Source of the DNA: Escherichia phage vB_Eco_F27
Direction: 5' to 3' (one strand)
Length of the DNA stretch: 64,000 bases
Sequence record: OP870146.1
A program made the translations under genes and the position numbers. This document shows, in pieces, positions 5,732-40,775 of this stretch (position 1 is the stretch's first letter; the number at the start of each line of letters is the position of its first letter). A model generated the notes under the pieces. That model ran no database searches and was not told the DNA's origin. It was given only the letters and a program-made list of their open reading frames with translations.

Positions 5732-7420
5732 TTATGAAACAGTCATTACAGTAAATCGTCCAACTTTGCTCATTTGCAAATGTTGTCCATAACGTTGAGG
5801 GTCATGGTCCCTATGAGAAATAATGAACACGTTAGTATTTTGTAAACTTCCAAGAATGGTATCTATAGCCTTAACAGCTTCAGAATCAACTGCCCCATCA
5901 AAAACCTCATCAAGAATCAGAGTGTTGATTTTAACACCAGAGACCTTTTCAGCAATATCTCGCCATGTAAACAACAACGCGATATCAATGCGTGCTTTTT
6001 CACCTTGACTAAATGAAGCATAACTAAAATCTTCACGACCACGTGATTTTATAGATTCATTGAATTCTTCATCAATAGAAAACACGTAATCAGCTTCCAT
6101 AATTTTAAGATAATGGTTAATCTGCTTGTTGAACAGAGGCACATATTTTTTAATGATAGCACCTTTAATACCAGAATCTTTTAACATATCTGTGATAATA
6201 CCACGATGGTATTTTTCAAGAACGGTATCCGATTTTGTTTTAATGATTTTATCAAGTTCTTTTTGAAGCAAAGCTATCTCATCGGCATGGTCGATAAATT
6301 CTGCTGAGGCTTGCTCTATTGCAGCTTTAACTTTCTTAGCTTTATCAATAGTGGCAATCATTGCTTGTTTCTTGGTACGAATATCAGATGCAAGGTCCTG
6401 CTTAGTCTTAACATTAGCTCTATATTCATCAACTAGGACACTCAGATTATCTCTGTGACAGGTAAGTTGCTCGAATGAGTGATTACATTCATGAAGCTTA
6501 TCGGTAATCTTAGAGACAATAGGGTCACCCTGGTGCAATTGTGATGCACAAGTAGGACATGTGCCACCGTCATGATACATCTTAATAACTTTGTTATATG
6601 AGTCAATTTTAGATTTAATCAAGAATGCTTCTTGTCCTATCTTATTGAATGCCTCAGTAGGGTCTTCATCAAGAACGATATTAAGTAGTCGCTCATTAGC
6701 TTCTTCGATTTCTGCTTTTAATGAACGAGCTTCTTTGGCTAGGTCGTCATACATATTCTGTAGACGCGCTACATTATCACCAGATAATTTCTTTTGACGT
6801 TCGATATTCTCATTATAAATCTTAATTTGTTGGATAACACCATCTTTCTTGGCATCGAGAACTTGCCCCTGGGAATTAAGTTCGCGAACTTGAGACTTAT
6901 TGATTTTATCCATTTCAGCGAGTGTGCCGACTTCTAAAAGGTCTTCGACAAGTTTTCTACGAGCAGGGGTGCTAAGAGCCATGAAAGGGGTATACCCTGC
7001 CGTCCCAAGCACAACGATCTGTTTAAAAGACGCGTATGACATTCCGATGCTACGTTCAAATTCTTCTTGGAAGTCACGACTGCTGGCAGATTCATCGAGA
7101 CGAACACCGTCAACGGAGATTTCGAAAATATTGGGCTTTTGGCCGCGTCTAATGAAGTATTTTTTATCATCGAATTCCATCCAAAGCTCAACTAAGAGCT
7201 CTTTCTTGTTCGTGCTATTAATGATTTGTCCTTTCTTAACATCACGAAATGGTTTACCGAAAAGTCCGAAAGTAATGGCTTCTAACATCGTAGATTTACC
7301 ACCGCCATTTTTACCAGTGATTAATGTCTTTTGGACTTTATCTAATTGGATATCAATAGGATTCCCACCTACCGACATGATGTTTTGATAACGAACACGA
7401 TTTAATTTAAATGATTTCAT
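5732..7420 (-). CDS. 46: recombination endonuclease subunit gp46 (Rad50/SbcC-like ATPase)
   Basis: 562 aa. N-terminal Walker A GKNGGGKST, long central coiled coil with CPTC zinc hook, signature FSQGE, C-terminal Walker B LILDEVF. Confidence 0.93.
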   Translation of the reverse strand: MKSFKLNRVRYQNIMSVGGNPIDIQLDKVQKTLITGKNGGGKSTMLEAITFGLFGKPFRDVKKGQIINSTNKKELLVELWMEFDDKKYFIRRGQKPNIFEISVDGVRLDESASSRDFQEEFERSIGMSYASFKQIVVLGTAGYTPFMALSTPARRKLVEDLLEVGTLAEMDKINKSQVRELNSQGQVLDAKKDGVIQQIKIYNENIERQKKLSGDNVARLQNMYDDLAKEARSLKAEIEEANERLLNIVLDEDPTEAFNKIGQEAFLIKSKIDSYNKVIKMYHDGGTCPTCASQLHQGDPIVSKITDKLHECNHSFEQLTCHRDNLSVLVDEYRANVKTKQDLASDIRTKKQAMIATIDKAKKVKAAIEQASAEFIDHADEIALLQKELDKIIKTKSDTVLEKYHRGIITDMLKDSGIKGAIIKKYVPLFNKQINHYLKIMEADYVFSIDEEFNESIKSRGREDFSYASFSQGEKARIDIALLFTWRDIAEKVSGVKINTLILDEVFDGAVDSEAVKAIDTILGSLQNTNVFIISHRDHDPQRYGQHLQMSKVGRFTVMTVS

Positions 7421-34612: not shown

Positions 34613-34841
34613 CATCTCGGTCCCATGATTTGGCCATTAATTCGGACATAAATTCTTCAATGCGCGTTTCTTTAGATGGACTTTCACTATTAGAGACCGC
34701 AAGTTTGTAATCTGCAATAGGACAGAACATATCAAGGTCCATATTAAGGTCGTCTTTGATTTTTTCTTCTGACACATCTTTATCGTATGTGTACAGATAA
34801 CTATCACATGATTCTGATTTAATGTAAATTGCTATACTCAT
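34605..34841 (-). CDS. hypothetical acidic protein
   Basis: The ATG at 34841 (MSIAIYIKSE) has AGGAA 8 nt upstream. That SD is encoded within the ..ECRN.. tail of the upstream gene. Confidence 0.55.
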   Translation of the reverse strand: MSIAIYIKSESCDSYLYTYDKDVSEEKIKDDLNMDLDMFCPIADYKLAVSNSESPSKETRIEEFMSELMAKSWDRDDE

Positions 34842-35329
34842 CTCAAATTCCTGCATTCGGTAATAAAACGTTCAACTTCATTATTCTTGGCCTTTATCTT
34901 GTCTTTACGTTCCTGTAAACTACTTTTAACAAGATTAATAATGATGCCTACAGTACCTCCACCAATAATACCACCAATAATACTTACAATAGTAGATGCT
35001 AATAAGATAGCGATAATATCTAGTACAGCAAAGGCACTTACTTTAGTACTAAAAAACCATACCGACGGTACAAATATAATCCATCCTGTTATCCATTGGC
35101 ACTTATTGAAAAACTTTTCAAGCTCAGCTTGAGTTGTTCGTATTACTTCATCGATAGGTTGATATCCATTAATGTATCTGTTCACAATAATACCTGCTGG
35201 CTGGTCGATTTTAAATTCTTGGCAAATATGTTTCACTAAGTAGGATGGACATCCTGTCCAATCTACCGAATAATACGAAATACCTTCGTTGCCATCGTCT
35301 ATATTAGACCAATATGTTTTGTTAATCAT
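34838..35329 (-). CDS. membrane protein with ERFITECR C-terminal tail
   Basis: The ATG at 35329 overlaps the upstream TAA. Two TM helices (WIIFVPSVWFF..., LDIIAILLASTIVSIIGGIIGGGTVGIII). Ends ...NNEVERFITECRNLR. Confidence 0.6.
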   Translation of the reverse strand: MINKTYWSNIDDGNEGISYYSVDWTGCPSYLVKHICQEFKIDQPAGIIVNRYINGYQPIDEVIRTTQAELEKFFNKCQWITGWIIFVPSVWFFSTKVSAFAVLDIIAILLASTIVSIIGGIIGGGTVGIIINLVKSSLQERKDKIKAKNNEVERFITECRNLR

Positions 35330-36015
35330 TACCAACCTTCCATAGGGAATTCCAGATAAACTTGGGCATTGACACGAATTTCATTGGTAATCTTTTTAAC
35401 TCGGTCTGTATTACGAGATACACGTCCGAACCAACGCCATCCATTACTAATTGCACGAGAACCAGTGTGCCATGTTTGCCAATCAAACTGAAGAAGAGTA
35501 CGATCTGGAGCTTCCCATTTCTCTAGTTCACCTTTTTCAATTTTTTCGAGGACTTCTTTGTGCCACTGGCGATAGATAAGTTCGCCATCAGGAATCTGAC
35601 TGAACTCTGCAGTTCCTGTTGCAAAATGAGTAGGACACACATCAGCGTTAACAAGACCAAGAATATGTTCAGACAAATAGCGAGGATTGTCATAATCAGG
35701 TTGTCCTGCAGTAATAAAATGTTGTCCTGTTGGAATATCTGGGCGTGGTACGTCATCATGGTGATATCCAGGAATAGCAGGGTACCAACCAGGCATCAAC
35801 ATGTGGACTCGTGAATCAAATACTACATCCGAGTCTTTCCAATCGTCAGGGAGATTTTGAATAAAGCTACGAGTAATTGGGCCGCCATTATCAAAAGCAA
35901 AATTCAAATCGCAGTTAAAGAACATAGGCTCGTTTTTAATCTGGTCGTTTTTAATCGCATGAGCAAAACCACCTACTGCACGAGCTTGACTATTAAACAC
36001 TTTAGAACTATTCAT
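35329..36015 (-). CDS. hypothetical protein, possible Fe(II)/2-oxoglutarate dioxygenase fold
   Basis: 228 aa. PGYHHDD (HxD-like), a distal WHTG His, then GRVS (RxS) 14 residues later. This is the pattern of the 2OG-oxygenase facial triad plus 2OG-binding Arg. Motif-level evidence only. Confidence 0.35.
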   Translation of the reverse strand: MNSSKVFNSQARAVGGFAHAIKNDQIKNEPMFFNCDLNFAFDNGGPITRSFIQNLPDDWKDSDVVFDSRVHMLMPGWYPAIPGYHHDDVPRPDIPTGQHFITAGQPDYDNPRYLSEHILGLVNADVCPTHFATGTAEFSQIPDGELIYRQWHKEVLEKIEKGELEKWEAPDRTLLQFDWQTWHTGSRAISNGWRWFGRVSRNTDRVKKITNEIRVNAQVYLEFPMEGW

Positions 36016-36016
36016 A

Positions 36017-36322
36017 TTATTTTCCTCGACATTCTTTAATGAAATTTTCTAGATTGGTAGATTCAATAGCTTTTTTACGAGCTTCAACATGTTCTTCTTC
36101 AGACAATTTACATTTATAATTGACCCAGACATTATGGTCGAAACTAGTCGTGGCATATAATAACAAAGCTCCGACGAATAATAAAAACGGTGATAAGAAT
36201 ATACAACCAGGCACACCATCCATACTGTAAGCCTTTTGTAATACTGCAACAGAAAGAGTTGCGTAAAAAAGTGATGCAAATATTGTTAAAAGACCAATTC
36301 GGTTGGTTTCGCCTAATTTCAT
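36017..36322 (-). CDS. membrane protein with ENFIKECR C-terminal tail
   Basis: 101 aa with two TM helices. Ends ...STNLENFIKECRGK. The next gene's ATG lies 2 nt after the stop. Confidence 0.6.
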   Translation of the reverse strand: MKLGETNRIGLLTIFASLFYATLSVAVLQKAYSMDGVPGCIFLSPFLLFVGALLLYATTSFDHNVWVNYKCKLSEEEHVEARKKAIESTNLENFIKECRGK

Positions 36323-36350
36323 AATATTCTCCTCATGTTTTAATAGGACT

Positions 36351-36380
36351 ACTATAACATAGTCCTATAATTGTGTAAAC
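36351..36380 (-). promoter_or_regulatory. early promoter cassette (PeSL type)
   Basis: Minus strand: GTTTAC, 18 nt, TATAGT. Inverted repeat ATAGGACTA/TAGTCCTAT surrounds the -10. Confidence 0.65.
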
Positions 36381-36392
36381 AGTTTTGCGAAA

Positions 36393-37349
36393 TTATTTGA
36401 AAGGTTTTACCATATGGAAATTTTGTTTGAAACGTTTGACGTAATCGTCATGTCCTAAGCTTTGGTACATACTTACTACTTTGCTGTAGTTTTCCCAGGC
36501 GTATTCACGGAACCAACCGGAGGTGATGCTTGTGCAGACTTTTTCTAATGCCATCATGAAACTGGCTTCAGGGTTAATTTTAAAGTCATTAGGAATCTGA
36601 GAACGTTCTAATGCTAGTACACATGATTCTTCATATACACCGGCCAATTTGACCATTTCTGGTAACGATTCGAACTTCTCGCGTGAGGTCATGACTTCAG
36701 AACCGTCTTTCATATAAAATGTATAAGCCGGACGGTCTGTTAGTGCAATGGCTTCATGAATAGTATCATGGTCATATGTATAGATGTCATCTTTAAAGAA
36801 CGCACTTTTAGAAGTGTCAAGAACCGGGTGAGCATAGTTCAAGGTTTCTTTCTGGCGTTTCAGCATAATTTCAGTAAGTTCATCGTTCAGTGTAACACCT
36901 TTACCACGAAGATACTGAATATGGTTCATAGTCTTTAAAAAGAATGGATTATTTTTCTTGAAACGATGAGACATCTTAATTGCAAGACATATCTCAGGAG
37001 TTGCCCAGTAAAACCCGTTCAAACGGTCTTTAGTCAAATTTTTCTTGGCGTATTTTAAAAGGTCATAAGAAGACGTGAAATCTTCAGGAGTGAGTTCACC
37101 GACTAATTCACGGACATTAGTGATTGCCGGAACAATATATGCTTCAAAATGAGTTTCGCGTCCATTATGGAAGCATTTGAAAACTTGGACATCAGGGTTA
37201 TCTTGGTGAACATATACACCCATCATTTGATTTTTGAATGCATTCCAAGAACCTTGGTCCGCAATAAAGTCCCAATCGCTATTTTTGATAGCGCTAGAAT
37301 CAATAAGACCATGATAGTGAAGTGCACGAGAACCAATAACTAACATCAT
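36393..37349 (-). CDS. hypothetical protein, possible nucleotidyltransferase-fold N-terminus
   Basis: 318 aa. VIGSRALHYHGLIDSSAIKNSDWDFI loosely fits G[GS]-x(n)-DxD. Confidence 0.4.
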   Translation of the reverse strand: MMLVIGSRALHYHGLIDSSAIKNSDWDFIADQGSWNAFKNQMMGVYVHQDNPDVQVFKCFHNGRETHFEAYIVPAITNVRELVGELTPEDFTSSYDLLKYAKKNLTKDRLNGFYWATPEICLAIKMSHRFKKNNPFFLKTMNHIQYLRGKGVTLNDELTEIMLKRQKETLNYAHPVLDTSKSAFFKDDIYTYDHDTIHEAIALTDRPAYTFYMKDGSEVMTSREKFESLPEMVKLAGVYEESCVLALERSQIPNDFKINPEASFMMALEKVCTSITSGWFREYAWENYSKVVSMYQSLGHDDYVKRFKQNFHMVKPFK

Positions 37350-37377
37350 AATATTTTCCTCGGATTAATTCATTAAC

Positions 37378-37617
37378 TTAAATTTCACGACATGCGATAT
37401 TATATTCGTCCCAGAGGTCATCGTGTGAAGCCTCTACCAATGGAACGATTGTACCGTTTATGTCTTCATTATAAGGGCAAATTGTACAGTGCGCATCTTC
37501 GAATCGGATGCCTTTGTGTTCAGATTTTTTATAACGCATATCGAATATCTTTGCAAACTTTTCACGAGTAATGGTTTTAGCAACCACTTTGGTTCCGATA
37601 CTTTCGTAATAAATCAT
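37378..37617 (-). CDS. hypothetical protein
   Basis: The ATG at 37617 (MIYYESIG) has GGAG 7 nt upstream. The first ATG at 37629 lacks an SD. Confidence 0.55.
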   Translation of the reverse strand: MIYYESIGTKVVAKTITREKFAKIFDMRYKKSEHKGIRFEDAHCTICPYNEDINGTIVPLVEASHDDLWDEYNIACREI

Positions 37618-37645
37618 TGTGGACTCCATTTAATTTGATAGGACT

Positions 37646-37675
37646 ACTATAACATAGCCCTATCTTGTTGTAAAC
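37646..37675 (-). promoter_or_regulatory. early promoter cassette (PeSL type)
   Basis: Minus strand: GTTTAC, 18 nt, TATAGT. Inverted repeat ATAGGGCTA/TAGTCCTAT. Confidence 0.65.
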
Positions 37676-37679
37676 TGTT

Positions 37680-37877
37680 TTAGCAAGAATAACTAGATGA
37701 TACCCAGCCTTGAACAGTGATACTATTATGGGATAATGAGATCGCGTCCTGGAGATTCAGACCTGCGTTATCTTCAATCCATAATGTAACTTCTTCGCGT
37801 TCTTCTGTTGCAATTTGGAACAGGTTTTCCAGAGCAGCTACTGCCGTACGTACAGCACAATCTAATTCACGAGACAT
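37680..37877 (-). CDS. WVSS-x-x-C tail family protein, paralog 1
   Basis: 65 aa ending GWVSSSYSC-stop. Third member of a tandem paralog triplet. Confidence 0.65.
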   Translation of the reverse strand: MSRELDCAVRTAVAALENLFQIATEEREEVTLWIEDNAGLNLQDAISLSHNSITVQGWVSSSYSC

Positions 37878-37886
37878 ATTGTTTCC

Positions 37887-38159
37887 TTAGCAAGTGTGAG
37901 AAGATGCGACCCAACCACCAGTTTCGAGGCTCAGGTTGTAGTCGTATTGGTAAACGTCAGCCCATTCAGCATAGCCGTTTTTTGTACAACGTTCAAGATC
38001 GGCTTTAAGATGTCCGGGTGAATGATAGGTTCCACCCATACCATAAGCTGGATACAAGTCGAATGTTGTGTTTTGTTTATCAGCAATTTCTTTGGCAGCC
38101 TCAATAGCTGCATAGATTTTTGCTACAGCTTCAGCCAGTTCGGTTTGTTCTTTAGACAT
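37887..38159 (-). CDS. WVSS-x-x-C tail family protein, paralog 2
   Basis: 90 aa ending GGWVASSHTC-stop. Shares the A..I...I..A..IAD....F......YG.G.TY..G core with paralog 3. Confidence 0.65.
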   Translation of the reverse strand: MSKEQTELAEAVAKIYAAIEAAKEIADKQNTTFDLYPAYGMGGTYHSPGHLKADLERCTKNGYAEWADVYQYDYNLSLETGGWVASSHTC

Positions 38160-38168
38160 AATGATTCC

Positions 38169-38474
38169 TTAGCACAACGCAGAAGACGAAACCCAAGCAC
38201 CTTCAGTAATAACGTAACCATTACCTTCACGCTTAACATCGCCACCATTATTTTCAATTTCATCTTTCATCCACTGGGATACGATTTCACCCTTAGGATA
38301 ATAAGTACGACCACTACCATAATCACCTACAGAAAATGATACGGCATATTGGTCTGCGATCTTTGTTGCTTCTTCTTCGATACGTTCAGCTTGATTCAGA
38401 AGTTTATAAATTGCATCTGAAGCGGATTTGGCATCATTAAACTCTGGTACTTTAATTTCAATAATCTTACTCAT
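38169..38474 (-). CDS. WVSS-x-x-C tail family protein, paralog 3
   Basis: 101 aa ending GAWVSSSALC-stop. Confidence 0.65.
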   Translation of the reverse strand: MSKIIEIKVPEFNDAKSASDAIYKLLNQAERIEEEATKIADQYAVSFSVGDYGSGRTYYPKGEIVSQWMKDEIENNGGDVKREGNGYVITEGAWVSSSALC

Positions 38475-38830
38475 TTTCTACATTCCTTAATAAAGTTTTC
38501 GATTGTTTCATTTTCACGTCTAGCTAGGAGTTCATTATAACTAATCGTTTGAGAAGCGTAAACCTTTTTATTTTTCTTGTTGTGGTTTATAAAATCGTAG
38601 TAAAAATAGACTACAGTACAAAATGATGCGATGGATGCAAAGGCTTGGGTATACCGTAAGTCCTGCCATTGGTCTGTGAATCCACCAGTGTTCCCTATAA
38701 ATCCTAACACAACGCCGTCAATAAGAAATCCAACTAATCCAAAGGCAAATCCCATGCCAATACTCATAATAAAAATTAGAATGTTCTCACCAAGAGAAGG
38801 CCATACGGTTAAGAGTTGAGGCTTTTGCAT
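38471..38830 (-). CDS. membrane protein with ENFIKECR C-terminal tail
   Basis: 119 aa with three hydrophobic helices. Ends ...ENETIENFIKECRK, and the stop overlaps the next ATG (AAAUGA). Confidence 0.6.
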   Translation of the reverse strand: MQKPQLLTVWPSLGENILIFIMSIGMGFAFGLVGFLIDGVVLGFIGNTGGFTDQWQDLRYTQAFASIASFCTVVYFYYDFINHNKKNKKVYASQTISYNELLARRENETIENFIKECRK

Positions 38831-39204
38831 CTTATTTCCTTAACGAATTCCATAGCTTCTTCATATTCATACTTTTTAACAGCTTCATCATACTGAGCTT
38901 GGGCTTTTGCGCACTGAACTTTCCATTCGCGTACTCGAGCTCTATAATGACGGCCTTGGTGCCAATATCCTGCCCAATTAATAGGCATTAATAAAAATGG
39001 CACAATAAACGGCCCGGCTATAATAAGTAAAAACACTGCATCAGACGATATAACTTCACTAGAATCTAAAACAGCTCCTATAATCATAAAGATTAAAAAT
39101 GCTAAAGCTAAAATAGGGCCAAATAGTACTTCATTTGGGATTAATTTACGTTTGTATTCGTATGCCCAGGGCTTAATTGGCATGTACAGGGTTGGCTTTG
39201 ACAT
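38809..39204 (-). CDS. membrane protein with EFVKEIRC C-terminal tail
   Basis: The ATG at 39204 (MSKPTLYMPIK). Two TM helices. Ends ...YEEAMEFVKEIRCKSLNS with the next ATG embedded in the tail. Confidence 0.55.
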   Translation of the reverse strand: MSKPTLYMPIKPWAYEYKRKLIPNEVLFGPILALAFLIFMIIGAVLDSSEVISSDAVFLLIIAGPFIVPFLLMPINWAGYWHQGRHYRARVREWKVQCAKAQAQYDEAVKKYEYEEAMEFVKEIRCKSLNS

Positions 39205-39775
39205 ATTCTCTACATTCCATAATAAATTGCTCAAGGATTAAATTGTTAGTGAAATTAGGACTAACAACCATAGTTTCATAAAGCGCATCAATAGCACTTA
39301 AAGCATCAACTCTTTTAAGCAAAGGCTTGCCTTCATACATAGTTTCAGAATCGATGATTAACGTAAAGTAATATTTTTTATTATCGACTAGAACTTCCGT
39401 ATCGATATAAAACATATTAGACCTCAGAAGCTTATCTCTAAAACCATAATAATCTTCAGAGCGTTCGCTGATATATTCCCATTCAGTGTTTAAACAACAA
39501 ACAGACCATGTAGGAGCAACGAAATCGGTGAATCTAATATCATGGTCTGCAACTAGTTTAGCAATAGCTCCGATATCATGAATCATAATACCTGGGGCTA
39601 ATAAAGATTTTCTGCTATGGCTAGCCGTTTTCTCAGTAGTCTCATAAGAAGACGACCAGTACCATTTACGTCCAGTTGCAACATATCGTAATGAATCAAC
39701 TAAAGATGTAGGTGGATTTACCTTATCTCGGAACTCTTCGAACATTGAGTCAATATCATTATTTTGGTTTCGCAT
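39173..39775 (-). CDS. hypothetical protein with QFIMECR near the C-terminus
   Basis: The ATG at 39775 follows AAGGAG. 200 aa ending ...LILEQFIMECREYVKANPVHAN. The next gene's ATG lies just after ECRE. Confidence 0.6.
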   Translation of the reverse strand: MRNQNNDIDSMFEEFRDKVNPPTSLVDSLRYVATGRKWYWSSSYETTEKTASHSRKSLLAPGIMIHDIGAIAKLVADHDIRFTDFVAPTWSVCCLNTEWEYISERSEDYYGFRDKLLRSNMFYIDTEVLVDNKKYYFTLIIDSETMYEGKPLLKRVDALSAIDALYETMVVSPNFTNNLILEQFIMECREYVKANPVHAN

Positions 39776-39792
39776 GTTAACTCCTTTATTAT

Positions 39793-39816
39793 CCAAAAGG
39801 AGGACCGGAGTCCTCC
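39793..39816 (-). terminator. hairpin terminator
   Basis: Minus-strand GGAGGAC-UCCG-GUCCUCC followed by UUUUGG, 8 nt after the stop of the PspA-like gene. Confidence 0.55.
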
Positions 39817-39824
39817 GTATTATT

Positions 39825-40418
39825 TTATTTCAAAGAGTTAATATATTCTTGTACATCAGCAGAAGTGGTTTCGACGCCGGCTGGAGTGCCATTGAACGTT
39901 TCAACACGAGTCAGAGTGTCTTCGATATCAACCTTAGTCAGTGCAGCGATTTCAATTACATCATCGGCCGTAGAGATACCAAGGGCATTGGCTGCTCGAG
40001 TTTCACGAATGTATTCGAGTTTGATTGCCAGGTTCTGACGAGCATCGTCAAGTTCAACCACCTTACGAGCAATTTCAATTCGCATAGCGGCATACCCGTC
40101 AGCTTTTGTATTAAGTTGTTCGGCAGTTCGACGATACAGAAGACCAAGCTTAGCATGCATGGTAACATCTTGTCCTTCAGCCAGGAGCTTACGAATTTCA
40201 CGTTCCTTAGAAGCGGCTTGCTTGTTCTTTTCATTAACAAGTTCGCGAATACGTTTTTCTTCATTAATAGATTTAACAGAAGCCGTTTTTAGTTCTTTGA
40301 TTTGGGTAATCAACTTATCTGCAGCTGCGTTATACTGTTCTTCGACAGTCAGATTTTTAGCCATAGCAGTACCAAGTTTAGTGCGGATGAATTCAACAAG
40401 TTTCTTCAGTGTGTTCAT
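39825..40418 (-). CDS. long coiled-coil protein, PspA/IM30-like
   Basis: 197 aa from the ATG at 40418. Continuous heptad-rich helices resemble PspA in size and layout (compare [13 protein letters not shown] with PspA LSETRARQQALML). Similarity judged by eye only. Confidence 0.35.
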
Positions 40419-40441
40419 ATTATTACCTTTCAATTGGTGGT

Positions 40442-40489
40442 TTATTATCCAACGAGAGCATTATACTCTGCTCTCAAGAGATTGTAAAT
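40442..40489 (-). promoter_or_regulatory. early promoter cassette, near-duplicate of 11194..11241
   Basis: Minus strand: ATTTACA, then TATAAT flanked by GAGAGCA/TGCTCTC. 46 of 48 nt are identical to the copy at 11194..11241. Confidence 0.7.
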
Positions 40490-40716
40490 TATTTTTTAAT
40501 CAAATTGACATAAAACTCGGCGTCTTCCGGGTGCATGCCTTCGCAGTATTCTTCAACCATGAACTTCTTAACAGCTTCATAAGGACCGCTCAGATTAAGC
40601 TCAGTTGTCCAGAACTTGGAATCTTGGACCGAATCGATACGAACTTCAGGGTGACGGTTGCGAATAACTTCTTCAGTGTATTCATAATCAACGACATCAA
40701 TACTAACTGTAGCCAT
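40489..40716 (-). CDS. hypothetical acidic protein
   Basis: 75-aa ORF. AGAGGAGAAAC lies upstream. Confidence 0.6.
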   Translation of the reverse strand: MATVSIDVVDYEYTEEVIRNRHPEVRIDSVQDSKFWTTELNLSGPYEAVKKFMVEEYCEGMHPEDAEFYVNLIKK

Positions 40717-40745: not shown

Positions 40746-40775
40746 ACTATAACATAAACGTACTTAGATGTAAAT
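40746..40775 (-). promoter_or_regulatory. early promoter
   Basis: Minus strand: ATTTAC, 18 nt, TATAGT. Confidence 0.55.

What the first reader, a model, noticed from the sequence alone, without database searches (positions are those of the whole stretch)
37680..38474. Tandem triplet of paralogs ending in an invariant W-V-[SA]-S-x-x-Cys-stop tail
Three adjacent genes encode related proteins of 65, 90 and 101 aa. They are separated by 9-nt spacers, each containing its own SD.

The C-termini are GWVSSSYSC, GGWVASSHTC and GAWVSSSALC. In every case a Cys is the very last residue. The codons differ synonymously (TGG GTA TCA TCT / TGG GTC GCA TCT / TGG GTT TCG TCT), so the tail is kept at the protein level.

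Paralogs 2 and 3 also share an N-terminal amphipathic helix and a Y-G-x-G-x-T-Y core.

A strictly C-terminal Cys after a Ser-rich stretch could indicate a modification, conjugation or metal-binding handle. The triplet lies immediately downstream of the ENFIKECR-tail membrane genes in one transcription unit.
Basis: seen in the sequence. Interest (0 to 1): 0.6.

Follow-up and report, generated by a model that had tools for sequence, protein, structure and literature searches.

The report
Cys-tailed small proteins partnered with enzyme
Three adjacent small phage genes belong to a large, uncharacterised, phage-only family whose members almost always end in Trp-x-Ser-Ser-Ser-x-x-Cys, and which almost always sits just upstream of one conserved enzyme-like gene of unknown function, so the two probably work together in an undescribed way.

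Summary
The window is an RB69-like T-even phage. Three minus-strand genes (65, 90 and 101 aa; RB69 ORF136c, 137c, 138c/139c) end in GWVSSSYSC, GGWVASSHTC and GAWVSSSALC.

They belong to a large phage-restricted family (phrog_899 and phrog_4882, no Pfam). Of 194 retrieved members, 180 end in Cys. Trp(-8), Ser(-5) and Ser(-4) are about 99% invariant. The two Ser positions use all six Ser codons, so selection acts on the protein.

The AlphaFold model is confident (pLDDT 91) and matches no solved structure.

The main new result is a two-way gene linkage. The family lies directly upstream, on the same strand, of a DUF7277+DUF7275 protein (window 36393-37349, RB69 ORF134c):
- 107 of 117 loci that carry the enzyme also carry 1-5 family genes.
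- 55 of 57 loci that carry a family member also carry the enzyme.

The upstream ENFIKECR-tail membrane genes are not conserved partners.

The enzyme's only invariant N-terminal residues form a GS...DxD signature like that of Pol-beta nucleotidyltransferases. Its C-terminal domain has an H...HDxxH pattern. Neither assignment could be confirmed.

Best reading: a two-component early-gene module in which the enzyme recognises, and probably modifies, the tail. The function remains unproven and I found no literature on it.

The parts
38169..38474 (-). Paralog 3, 101 aa (RB69 ORF138c+139c). Full-length family member with N-terminal helix, YGSGRTYYP Gly-loop and tail GAWVSSSALC-stop.
   Evidence: ORF list. 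phrog_899 E=1.3e-22. Family HMM E=1.9e-26. AF2 pLDDT 91.3. Start overlaps the e.3 stop codon, ATGA.
37887..38159 (-). Paralog 2, 90 aa (RB69 ORF137c). Full-length family member with YGMGGTYHSP Gly-loop and tail GGWVASSHTC-stop.
   Evidence: ORF list. phrog_899 E=3.5e-19. Family HMM E=3.7e-24. BLASTP against paralog 3 E=3e-6.
37680..37877 (-). Paralog 1, 65 aa (RB69 ORF136c). Degenerate member: N-terminal helix plus tail GWVSSSYSC-stop, with the Gly-loop core missing.
   Evidence: ORF list. phrog_4882 E=7.7e-37. Family HMM E=4e-4, driven by the tail. BLASTP against the other paralogs E=4e-4 and 1e-3. Loop-less paralogs are common in other arrays.
38172..38195 (-). Codons for the invariant tail W-V-S-S-S-A-L-C of paralog 3.
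   Evidence: Sequence. Family tail statistics.
37890..37913 (-). Codons for the invariant tail W-V-A-S-S-H-T-C of paralog 2.
   Evidence: Sequence. Family tail statistics.
37683..37706 (-). Codons for the invariant tail W-V-S-S-S-Y-S-C of paralog 1.
   Evidence: Sequence. Family tail statistics.
36393..37349 (-). Conserved partner gene, 318 aa (RB69 ORF134c). DUF7277 (N-terminal, invariant G6 S7 ... D25 x D27) plus DUF7275 (invariant H128, H194-D195, H198, E240/241, E248-R249, K270). Putative nucleotidyltransferase/phosphohydrolase-like enzyme.
   Evidence: Pfam DUF7275 E=4.8e-79 and DUF7277 E=9.9e-28. Invariant columns. Linkage surveys. Some GenBank depositors label Acinetobacter-phage homologs 'putative nucleotidyltransferase'.
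37646..37674 (-). Sigma-70/T4-early-like promoter match (TTTACA-17-TATAGT, TG extended) just after the paralog 1 stop codon, ahead of ORF135c and the enzyme gene. No terminator-like site lies between the triplet and the enzyme gene.
   Evidence: Consensus scan. This is a pattern match only.

Best explanation
The three genes are members of a phage-restricted family of small, acidic proteins (median pI 4.5). Members have an N-terminal helix, usually a Y-G-M/S-G-G-T-Y-Y-P loop, and an invariant C-terminal G-x-W-x-[S/A/P]-S-S-x-x-Cys-COOH tail.

The family is the obligate genomic partner of the DUF7277+DUF7275 protein encoded 330 bp downstream. Together they form a two-component, probably early-expressed accessory module.

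Shown here:
- family membership;
- protein-level invariance of the tail;
- two-way linkage that respects strand and gene order;
- restriction to phages.

Inferred:
- The tail is the element the enzyme recognises. It is the only feature kept in every paralog, including those that have lost the Gly-loop.
- The enzyme acts on the tail covalently. The most likely form is O-nucleotidylylation of the invariant Ser hydroxyls, possibly reversible through the His/Asp-rich C-terminal domain, or chemistry involving the terminal Cys thiol/carboxylate.
- The variable body of each paralog gives it its individual role in host takeover or counter-defence.
For: Family and tail:
- 211 representatives at E<=1e-3 in the exhaustive search.
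- 180/194 sequences end in Cys, with W(-8), S(-5) and S(-4) about 99% invariant.
- All six Ser codons are used at both invariant Ser positions.

Linkage:
- 46/48 loci anchored on the enzyme have family genes within about 2 kb upstream on the same strand.
- 55/57 loci anchored on the family carry the enzyme. One of the two exceptions is cut at a contig end.
- Pooled, 107/117 loci are linked. There are 180 upstream genes against 3 downstream, none on the opposite strand and none farther than 3.5 kb.
- 43 of 53 enzyme clusters (at least 60% identity) are linked.
- No other window neighbour is conserved with the module.

Tail as the key element:
- Loop-less paralogs keep the tail.

Enzyme character:
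- The only invariant residues in the first ~120 positions are G6 S7 ... D25 x D27, the minimal Pol-beta nucleotidyltransferase signature.
- The C-terminal domain has invariant H, HD, H, E and R residues.
- It keeps 44-48% identity between T4-like and jumbo phages.
- Independent depositors annotate homologs as 'putative nucleotidyltransferase'.

General pairing:
- A distant enzyme clade (Gordonia, Streptomyces and KVP40 phages) abuts a different conserved ~97-aa small protein. Pairing with a small protein therefore seems a general property of the enzyme family.

Phage restriction:
- Only 6 loci, all in metagenome-assembled genomes, among 185,579 species genomes.
Against: - No biochemical or structural evidence of an interaction was obtained. 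Gene linkage alone cannot separate substrate, regulator and co-factor roles.
- The nucleotidyltransferase assignment rests on a four-residue motif and third-party annotation.
- Pfam and NCBIfam give no nucleotidyltransferase or HD hit for 26 members.
- PDB sequence and profile searches are empty.
- hhalign against E. coli Cca and GlnD gives probability below 1%.
- The only structure prediction of the enzyme failed (pLDDT 36, run without an alignment).
- In the AF2 model of the 101-aa paralog, the tail Trp-Val-Ser is a beta-strand of the fold rather than a free peptide. The conservation could therefore be partly structural.
- Ten of 117 enzyme loci lack a detectable family member.
- Paralog 3 is frameshifted in the RB69 reference genome, so individual copies are dispensable.
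Confidence: 0.45

Rival explanations
1. Regulator or antitoxin-like model. The small proteins are not substrates. They are inhibitors or regulators of the downstream enzyme. The C-terminal tail inserts into the active site, with the terminal Cys thiolate/carboxylate capping the catalytic metal (a 'cysteine switch'). This keeps a potentially toxic enzyme silent until needed.
For: - Small gene(s) lie immediately upstream of a larger enzyme gene on the same strand, as in many toxin-antitoxin operons, including nucleotidyltransferase toxins (MenAT, AbiE; established knowledge, PMC10435456 listed).
- The linkage statistics fit.
- The enzyme has an invariant His/Asp/Glu cluster suited to metal binding.
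- A strictly terminal Cys offers a bidentate S,O ligand (inference).
Against: - One to five divergent paralogs per locus is unusual for an antitoxin.
- Internal W-[D/E]-S-S-G-C repeats in some members make little sense for a single plug.
- There is no evidence that the enzyme is toxic.
- The module is found in virulent phages rather than in bacterial genomes.
Confidence: 0.2
2. Independent binder model. The small proteins act on their own as acidic ligand-, metal- or host-protein-binding factors, for example sponges for a signalling nucleotide or thiol/metal-binding proteins that oligomerise through the terminal Cys. The Gly-loop, aromatic residues and Ser-Ser-Ser cap would form the binding site. 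The neighbouring enzyme only works in the same pathway, for example by making or destroying the ligand.
For: - The invariant residues are of the ligand-binding type: Y52, G53, G55, T57, Y58, W94, S97, S98.
- The model is confident and compact, with the tail partly in the sheet.
- The proteins are small and acidic (median pI 4.46), like known phage sponges and DNA mimics (established knowledge).
- Some members carry 2-3 extra SSGC motifs, which could supply several thiol ligands.
- 85 of 180 members have a single Cys, so any multi-thiol site would need oligomers.
Against: - Paralogs that have lost the Gly-loop still keep the tail.
- Linkage above 90%, with fixed order, to one enzyme across very distant phages is tighter than expected for merely related functions.
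Confidence: 0.2
3. Scaffold or precursor model (RiPP- or pearlin-like). The small proteins are ribosomal scaffolds. Their C-terminal Ser-x-x-Cys is converted into a cross-link (lanthionine- or aminovinyl-cysteine-like) or into a released small molecule. The enzyme would activate the Ser hydroxyl by nucleotidylylation or phosphorylation before elimination.
For: - One to five tandem precursor-like genes sit directly upstream of an enzyme gene.
- The last residue is strictly invariant. This is also seen in precursors whose C-terminal carboxylate takes part in the chemistry (MftA, epidermin, cypemycin; established knowledge).
- S(-4)-x-x-C(-1) matches the i,i+3 spacing of AviCys rings (sequence).
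- Repeated W-x-S-S-G-C units occur in some members.
Against: - No radical-SAM, LanB/LanM/LanD, YcaO or PEARL-type gene is in the window neighbourhood or the other loci inspected.
- The proteins are predicted to be folded, with the tail Trp in the core.
- The conserved part is the 'core' and the variable part is the 'leader', the reverse of most RiPPs.
- S(-5) is at least as invariant as S(-4).
Confidence: 0.1
4. No specific function. The tail is conserved for trivial reasons (a DNA or RNA signal such as the TAAGGA stop/Shine-Dalgarno overlap, or recent duplication), or the ORFs are not real genes.
For: In paralogs 2 and 3 the stop codon is part of the next gene's Shine-Dalgarno sequence.
Against: - Tail codons vary freely. 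All six Ser codons, both Cys codons and all three stop codons occur in 100 distinct tails.
- The last gene of the array has the same tail with no following Shine-Dalgarno sequence.
- Homologs at 25-45% identity in unrelated phage groups keep the tail.
- No Rfam hit in the region.
Confidence: 0.02

Closest known systems
GlnD-PII (bifunctional uridylyltransferase/uridylyl-removing enzyme acting on a ~110-aa signalling protein)
   Same: If the motif-level inference holds, this is the same logic. A Pol-beta-type nucleotidyltransferase domain is fused to a His/Asp metal-hydrolase domain. It works on a dedicated small protein that carries a conserved Tyr/Gly-rich loop and hydroxyl acceptors.
   Different: - No detectable sequence relationship (hhalign probability 0.1%).
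- The small protein's predicted fold matches no PDB entry, PII included.
- The conserved element is a C-terminal tail ending in Cys, not a T-loop Tyr.
- Partners are encoded in tandem arrays next to the enzyme.
- The module is phage-only.
Nucleotidyltransferase two-gene modules: MNT-HEPN (type VII TA), MenAT/AbiE
   Same: A ~300-aa minimal nucleotidyltransferase-like protein with an N-terminal GS...DxD motif is encoded in an operon with a smaller partner. In MNT-HEPN the nucleotidyltransferase AMPylates its partner protein (established knowledge).
   Different: - The partner is not HEPN (no Rx4-6H) and has no wHTH.
- No PADLOC, Pfam or NCBIfam hit.
- There are 1-5 paralogous partners.
- It is found in virulent phage genomes and essentially absent from bacterial genomes.
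- Toxicity is untested.
Ribosomal precursor/scaffold peptides with an invariant C-terminal residue (MftA ...GVY, epidermin/cypemycin S/C-x-x-C giving AviCys, TglA-Cys pearlin scaffolds)
   Same: Small genes, often in several tandem copies, lie immediately upstream of the modifying enzyme. The extreme C-terminus is invariant and must be the last residue. The Ser-x-x-Cys-COOH spacing matches.
   Different: - None of the known maturase families is present.
- The proteins are 60-140 aa and confidently predicted to fold.
- The conserved/variable pattern is inverted relative to leader/core.
Small acidic phage counter-defence proteins (Tad1, Tad2 and Acb2 sponges; Ocr- and Arn-type mimics)
   Same: Small, acidic, encoded in early accessory regions of large lytic phages, variable in copy number, and rich in conserved aromatic and Gly residues.
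   Different: - No fold or sequence similarity to any solved structure.
- Obligate linkage to an enzyme gene.
- Defined by a C-terminal Cys tail, which none of those families has.

Membership tests
PHROG phrog_899 / phrog_4882 (unknown function) | Significant match to the family profile | tested here: met
   Paralogs 3 and 2 match phrog_899 at E=1.3e-22 and 3.5e-19. Paralog 1 matches phrog_4882 at E=7.7e-37.
Pfam DUF7277 + DUF7275 (partner gene 36393-37349) | Score above the Pfam gathering threshold for both domains | tested here: met
   265.1 and 97.1 bits against a cut-off of 27. All 26 diverse homologs match both domains.
Pol-beta-like nucleotidyltransferase superfamily (partner gene) | hG[GS]-x(9-20)-[DE]h[DE]h active-site signature near the N-terminus | tested here: met
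   G6, S7, D25 and D27 are the only invariant columns in the N-terminal domain of 26 sequences with 37% mean column identity. All 48 homologs show hhhGS...DxD.
Pol-beta-like nucleotidyltransferase superfamily (partner gene) | Detectable profile or fold similarity to a known nucleotidyltransferase family | tested here: not met
   - No nucleotidyltransferase Pfam or NCBIfam hit at E<=10 or E<=1.
- PDB profile search empty.
- hhalign against E. coli Cca and GlnD gives probability below 1%.
- The fold could not be assessed because the AF2 model has pLDDT 36.
HD-domain phosphohydrolases (partner gene, C-terminal domain) | H...HD...D metal-binding motif and an all-helical fold | tested here: inconclusive
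   Invariant H128, H194-D195 and H198 plus E240/E241/E248 resemble the motif. There is no HD Pfam hit and no usable structure.
Lanthipeptide/AviCys-type RiPP precursors | Ser/Thr-x-x-Cys at the extreme C-terminus | tested here: met
   S(-4)-x-x-C(-1) occurs in 177/180 members.
Lanthipeptide/AviCys-type RiPP precursors | Dehydratase (LanB/LanM/LanKC) and/or LanD-type flavin decarboxylase in the cluster | tested here: not met
   Pfam scans of the window neighbours and called genes in five other contexts show none.
ThiS/MoaD-type sulfur-carrier or ubiquitin-like proteins | C-terminal Gly-Gly and a beta-grasp fold | tested here: not met
Known anti-phage defence or anti-defence families (PADLOC-DB; solved sponges) | Profile or fold match | tested here: not met
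Toxin-antitoxin module | Toxicity of one component, neutralised by the other | not testable with these tools
   Requires expression experiments.

The most novel reading that the evidence does not exclude
The module is a previously unknown phage-encoded system for modifying protein C-termini. A Pol-beta-type nucleotidyltransferase/metal-hydrolase enzyme would build a covalent adduct on the invariant Ser-Ser-Ser-x-x-Cys-COOH tail of dedicated small carrier proteins. The adduct could be a nucleotide, a protein-primed oligonucleotide, or a Ser-to-Cys thioether formed after activated elimination. The products would act in host takeover or counter-defence.
Probability: 0.2. Interest if true: 0.85.

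Novelty: categorically new. Interest (0 to 1): 0.66.

Why it matters
Both components are widespread. The enzyme occurs in 733 of 50,697 phage records and forms about 2,500 clusters at 90% identity. The small family has more than 200 clusters at 50% identity. Both are completely uncharacterised.

A near-absolute requirement for Cys as the very last residue, combined with obligate linkage to one enzyme-like gene, is the kind of signature that has led to new post-translational chemistries before. Examples are the mycofactocin precursor (MftA), aminovinyl-cysteine (AviCys) peptides, pearlins and protein AMPylation.

If the module modifies proteins or makes a signalling or inhibitory product, it would add a new tool to phage host-takeover and counter-defence biology. 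It would also give a function to two Pfam DUFs and two PHROGs.

The hypothesis can be tested directly with three small proteins and one enzyme from a standard E. coli phage (RB69 group).

Tried and rejected
- Upstream ENFIKECR-tail membrane genes (e.3, e.4, e.5) as functional partners: rejected. Homologs occur in 0-1 of 48 related loci.
- The 'sulfurtransferase' label in phage JK45: it sits on the e.4 homolog, not on this family, and has no supporting evidence.
- Pfam, NCBIfam and PADLOC scans of the three proteins: only sub-threshold noise.
- PDB profile search with the family: only generic helical or designed proteins.
- Structure of the partner enzyme: submitted without an alignment, giving pLDDT 36, which is unusable. 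This was my mistake and it used the last prediction job.
- hhalign of the enzyme profile against E. coli Cca and GlnD: no similarity.
- ORF132c (35329-36015) as a third module member: found in only 10 of 48 loci, with no family assignment.
- ORF135c, which lies between the triplet and the enzyme: found in only 2 of 48 loci.
- Enzyme Cys272 as a disulfide partner of the tail Cys: only a weak correlation. It is Cys in 77 of 85 partner-linked enzymes, but Ala or Ser in 8.
- Literature searches by ORF names, DUF and Pfam identifiers, motif strings and keywords: nothing relevant. The NAR 2026 RB69 paper concerns a different nucleotidyltransferase, gp52:53.
- Rfam scan and base composition of the region: nothing unusual.
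Full report
**1. What is there**

The window is an RB69-like T-even phage (Mosigvirus). Positions 36000-40500 are 97.8% identical to RB69 and 98.5% identical to phage mogra.

On the minus strand lie three consecutive ORFs of 101, 90 and 65 aa: 38169-38474, 37887-38159 and 37680-37877. They correspond to RB69 ORF138c/139c, ORF137c and ORF136c.

Their C-termini are GAWVSSSALC, GGWVASSHTC and GWVSSSYSC, each followed directly by TAA. The two spacers are 9 nt, and each holds an AAGGA Shine-Dalgarno sequence built from the preceding stop codon. The first gene's ATG overlaps the e.3 stop codon (ATGA).

Paralogs 2 and 3 are clearly homologous (BLASTP E=3e-6; both match phrog_899). They share a long N-terminal helix and the Y-G-x-G-x-T-Y loop. 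The 65-aa protein lacks that loop. It is related through the tail, the N-terminal helix and its position.

There are no Rfam hits and no compositional anomaly in the region.

**2. The tail defines a large family**

A word-indexed search and an exhaustive HMMER search with a seven-sequence profile recovered 211 cluster representatives at E<=1e-3.

Of the 194 sequences held, 180 end in Cys and 6 more carry one extra residue. Most of the rest look truncated or frameshifted.

Among the 180 that end in Cys:
- Trp is at -8 in 179.
- Ser is at -5 in 179.
- Ser is at -4 in 177.
- Position -6 is Ser, Ala or Pro.
- Positions -10 and -9 are mostly Gly.

In 100 distinct tails taken from fetched loci, both invariant Ser positions use all six Ser codons, including the AGY box. 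Cys uses TGT 32 times and TGC 68 times, and all three stop codons occur. Selection therefore acts on the protein, not on a nucleic-acid signal.

The family is acidic, with median pI 4.46 and median net charge -9. Eighty-five of the 180 have the terminal Cys as their only Cys. Some members carry internal W-[D/E]-S-S-G-C repeats in the acidic linker.

The family has no Pfam, NCBIfam or PADLOC assignment.

An AlphaFold2 model of the 101-aa paralog, built on a 45-sequence alignment, is confident (pLDDT 91.3). It shows a helix at 15-43, a hairpin carrying the Gly-loop, a short helix, and three strands. The last strand contains Trp-Val-Ser, followed by a one-turn C-terminal helix.

**3. The real context is a conserved enzyme-like partner**

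Looking up distant family members showed a DUF7277+DUF7275 protein just downstream in two unrelated contexts. The window has the same arrangement: ORF134c at 36393-37349, 318 aa (DUF7275 E=4.8e-79; DUF7277 E=9.9e-28).

I tested the linkage in both directions:
- **Anchored on the enzyme.** Of 48 viral-contig loci, 46 have at least one family member. Every one is on the same strand and within about 2 kb upstream.
- **Anchored on the family** (pattern YGMGGxYx[PG]). Of 57 loci, 55 have the enzyme at E<1e-85 on the same strand, and 53 of those have it downstream. One of the two exceptions ends at a contig edge.
- **Pooled.** Of 117 loci, 107 have 1-5 family genes. There are 180 upstream genes against 3 downstream, none on the opposite strand and none beyond 3.5 kb. 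Linkage holds in 43 of 53 enzyme clusters defined at 60% identity or more.

By contrast, e.3, e.4, e.5, ORF133c and ORF135c have homologs in 0-2 of the 48 loci. ORF132c has homologs in 10.

Arrays usually hold one loop-bearing member with or without loop-less paralogs. The window's pattern (two loop-bearing plus one loop-less) occurs in 4 of 84 non-identical arrays.

The enzyme occurs in 733 of 50,697 phage records. Hosts include Escherichia, Acinetobacter, Aeromonas, Pseudomonas, Vibrio, Stenotrophomonas, Gordonia and Streptomyces. In 185,579 bacterial and archaeal species genomes it appears only six times, always in metagenome-assembled genomes.

The RB69 annotation gives a T4 counterpart for e.2 and e.3 but none for ORF132c-139c.

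**4. What the partner looks like**

Across 26 diverse homologs, the only invariant residues in the N-terminal domain are G6, S7, D25 and D27. This hhhGS-x(11-20)-DxD pattern is the minimal signature of Pol-beta-type nucleotidyltransferases. All 48 homologs show it.

The C-terminal domain has invariant K125, H128, K139, E168, H194, D195, H198, E240, E241, E248, R249, K270, S274 and G278. This is an H...HDxxH pattern reminiscent of HD-type metal hydrolases.

The protein is highly conserved, at 44-48% identity between T4-like and jumbo phages. Depositors of some Acinetobacter phage genomes call it 'putative nucleotidyltransferase'.

I could not confirm either assignment:
- No nucleotidyltransferase or HD profile hit.
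- No PDB sequence or profile hit.
- hhalign against E. coli Cca and GlnD gives probability below 1%.
- The single-sequence AF2 run was useless (pLDDT 36) and used the last prediction job.

A distant clade of the enzyme (Gordonia ClubL, Streptomyces Wakanda, Vibrio KVP40) lacks the Cys-tail family. Instead it abuts a different conserved ~97-aa small protein. Pairing with a small protein may therefore be a general property of the enzyme family.

**5. How it most likely works**

Shown:
- a phage-restricted family with a protein-level invariant C-terminal tail;
- obligate linkage, with fixed order and strand, to one enzyme-like gene.

Inferred:
- The tail is what the enzyme recognises, because it is the only element kept in loop-less paralogs.
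- By analogy with nucleotidyltransferases that act on protein hydroxyls (GlnD-PII, MNT-HEPN; established knowledge), the invariant Ser-Ser is the likeliest acceptor.
- The need for Cys to be the last residue suggests that its thiol or free carboxylate also takes part.

I give the partner/tail-recognition model 0.45. The rivals are:
- an inhibitor or 'cysteine-switch' regulator of the enzyme (0.2);
- an independent ligand or metal binder that shares a pathway with the enzyme (0.2);
- a RiPP- or pearlin-like scaffold that yields a thioether or a small molecule (0.1);
- no specific function (0.02).

One test for a disulfide partner was only weakly positive. Enzyme Cys272 is Cys in 77 of 85 partner-linked enzymes and Ile or Val in the four enzymes of the distant group (three that pair with the other small protein, plus L054). 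But 8 partner-linked enzymes have Ala or Ser there.

Expression is probably early. A T4-early-like promoter match lies just downstream of the triplet, there is no terminator-like site between the triplet and the enzyme gene, and the triplet is translationally coupled to e.3. These are pattern matches only.

**6. Comparison with known systems, and novelty**

The module works most like the nucleotidyltransferase-plus-small-partner systems (GlnD-PII, MNT-HEPN, MenAT), or like precursor-plus-maturase clusters. It fails every membership test that could be run (see the membership table).

Full-text searches by ORF names, DUF and Pfam identifiers, motif strings and keywords found nothing on either component.

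I therefore rate it as not assignable to any known kind. If the nucleotidyltransferase inference is confirmed, it may turn out to be a new variant of protein-nucleotidylylation modules.

**7. Verdict**

Interest is 0.66. This is a clean, widespread and experimentally tractable lead, but it has no demonstrated function.

Noticed in passing
window 38169-38474 vs L001 (RB69 AY303349) 6160-6481: The RB69 reference genome has a 1-nt insertion (extra T after ...CAGTGG) that splits paralog 3 into ORF138c and ORF139c. It also has a Ser-to-Pro change at tail position -4 (VSSPALC). This copy is either a pseudogene or a sequencing error in the reference. It is intact in the window and in 48 other member sequences of its cluster.
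   Followed up: yes
window 34838-35380, 36017-36322, 38471-38830, 39173-39796 (all minus strand): Four genes (e.2, ORF133c, e.3, e.5) share a C-terminal or near-C-terminal E-x-F-I-x-E-C-R motif: VERFITECRNLR, LENFIKECRGK, IENFIKECRK and LEQFIMECREYVK. e.2 and e.3 are annotated as predicted membrane proteins. The motif is unexplained and unrelated to the Cys-tail family's conserved partner.
   Followed up: partly
L120 3600-3887, L121 3594-3890, L122 2360-2653: A distant clade of DUF7275 enzymes (Gordonia ClubL, Streptomyces Wakanda, Vibrio KVP40) lacks the Cys-tail family. Each is directly adjacent to a member of a second conserved ~97-aa small-protein family (28-30% mutual identity, motif GYYDSY.G...EV.P, no Pfam).
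   Followed up: partly
window 35329-36015 (minus strand; RB69 ORF132c): This 228-aa protein has no family assignment. It carries a VHMLMPGWYPAIPGYHHDDVPR motif and co-occurs with the enzyme in 10 of 48 loci. One of these is very distant (L054), where the homolog sits immediately upstream of the enzyme. It may be an occasional third component.
   Followed up: partly
family members P0054, P0099, P0102, P0113, P0131, P0141: Some members carry one to three internal copies of a shortened tail-like unit in the acidic linker before the terminal motif (W/F-[D/E]-S-S-G-C, or W-E-S-S-S-E-G). This suggests the tail is a modular, repeatable unit.
   Followed up: no
L125 5234-6893 (phAPEC8-like contig): Five tandem genes lie upstream of the enzyme. 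Four end in Cys: HAWCSSSMTC, DNWFPSSLGC, GSVWVTSSC and GIWVSSSEMC. One, HGWISSSICW, has a Trp after the Cys. Together with L056 (five family genes), this is the longest array seen.
   Followed up: partly
L004, L126, L127 (jumbo-phage contigs): In jumbo phages the module sits in a block flanked by T4-type RNA ligase 1 and PNKP (tRNA repair) on one side and metallophosphatases and DNA ligase on the other. In L004 and L005 it also lies near a Gad2-domain protein. In DSS3_VP1 it is next to RNA ligase 2. This may hint at an RNA-repair or counter-defence neighbourhood.
   Followed up: no
window 37378-37629 (minus strand; RB69 ORF135c): This 83-aa protein lies between the triplet and the enzyme gene and contains an H-C-T-I-C-P motif. 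It has homologs in only 2 of 48 related loci, so it is not part of the conserved module.
   Followed up: partly
window 36351-36379, 37646-37674, 40460-40488, 40746-40774 (minus strand): Four near-identical TTTACA-17-TATA(G/A)T promoter-like sites (three with an extended TG) punctuate the gene row. They resemble T4-type early promoters. A strong terminator-like hairpin at 39799-39816 separates e.6 from e.5.
   Followed up: no
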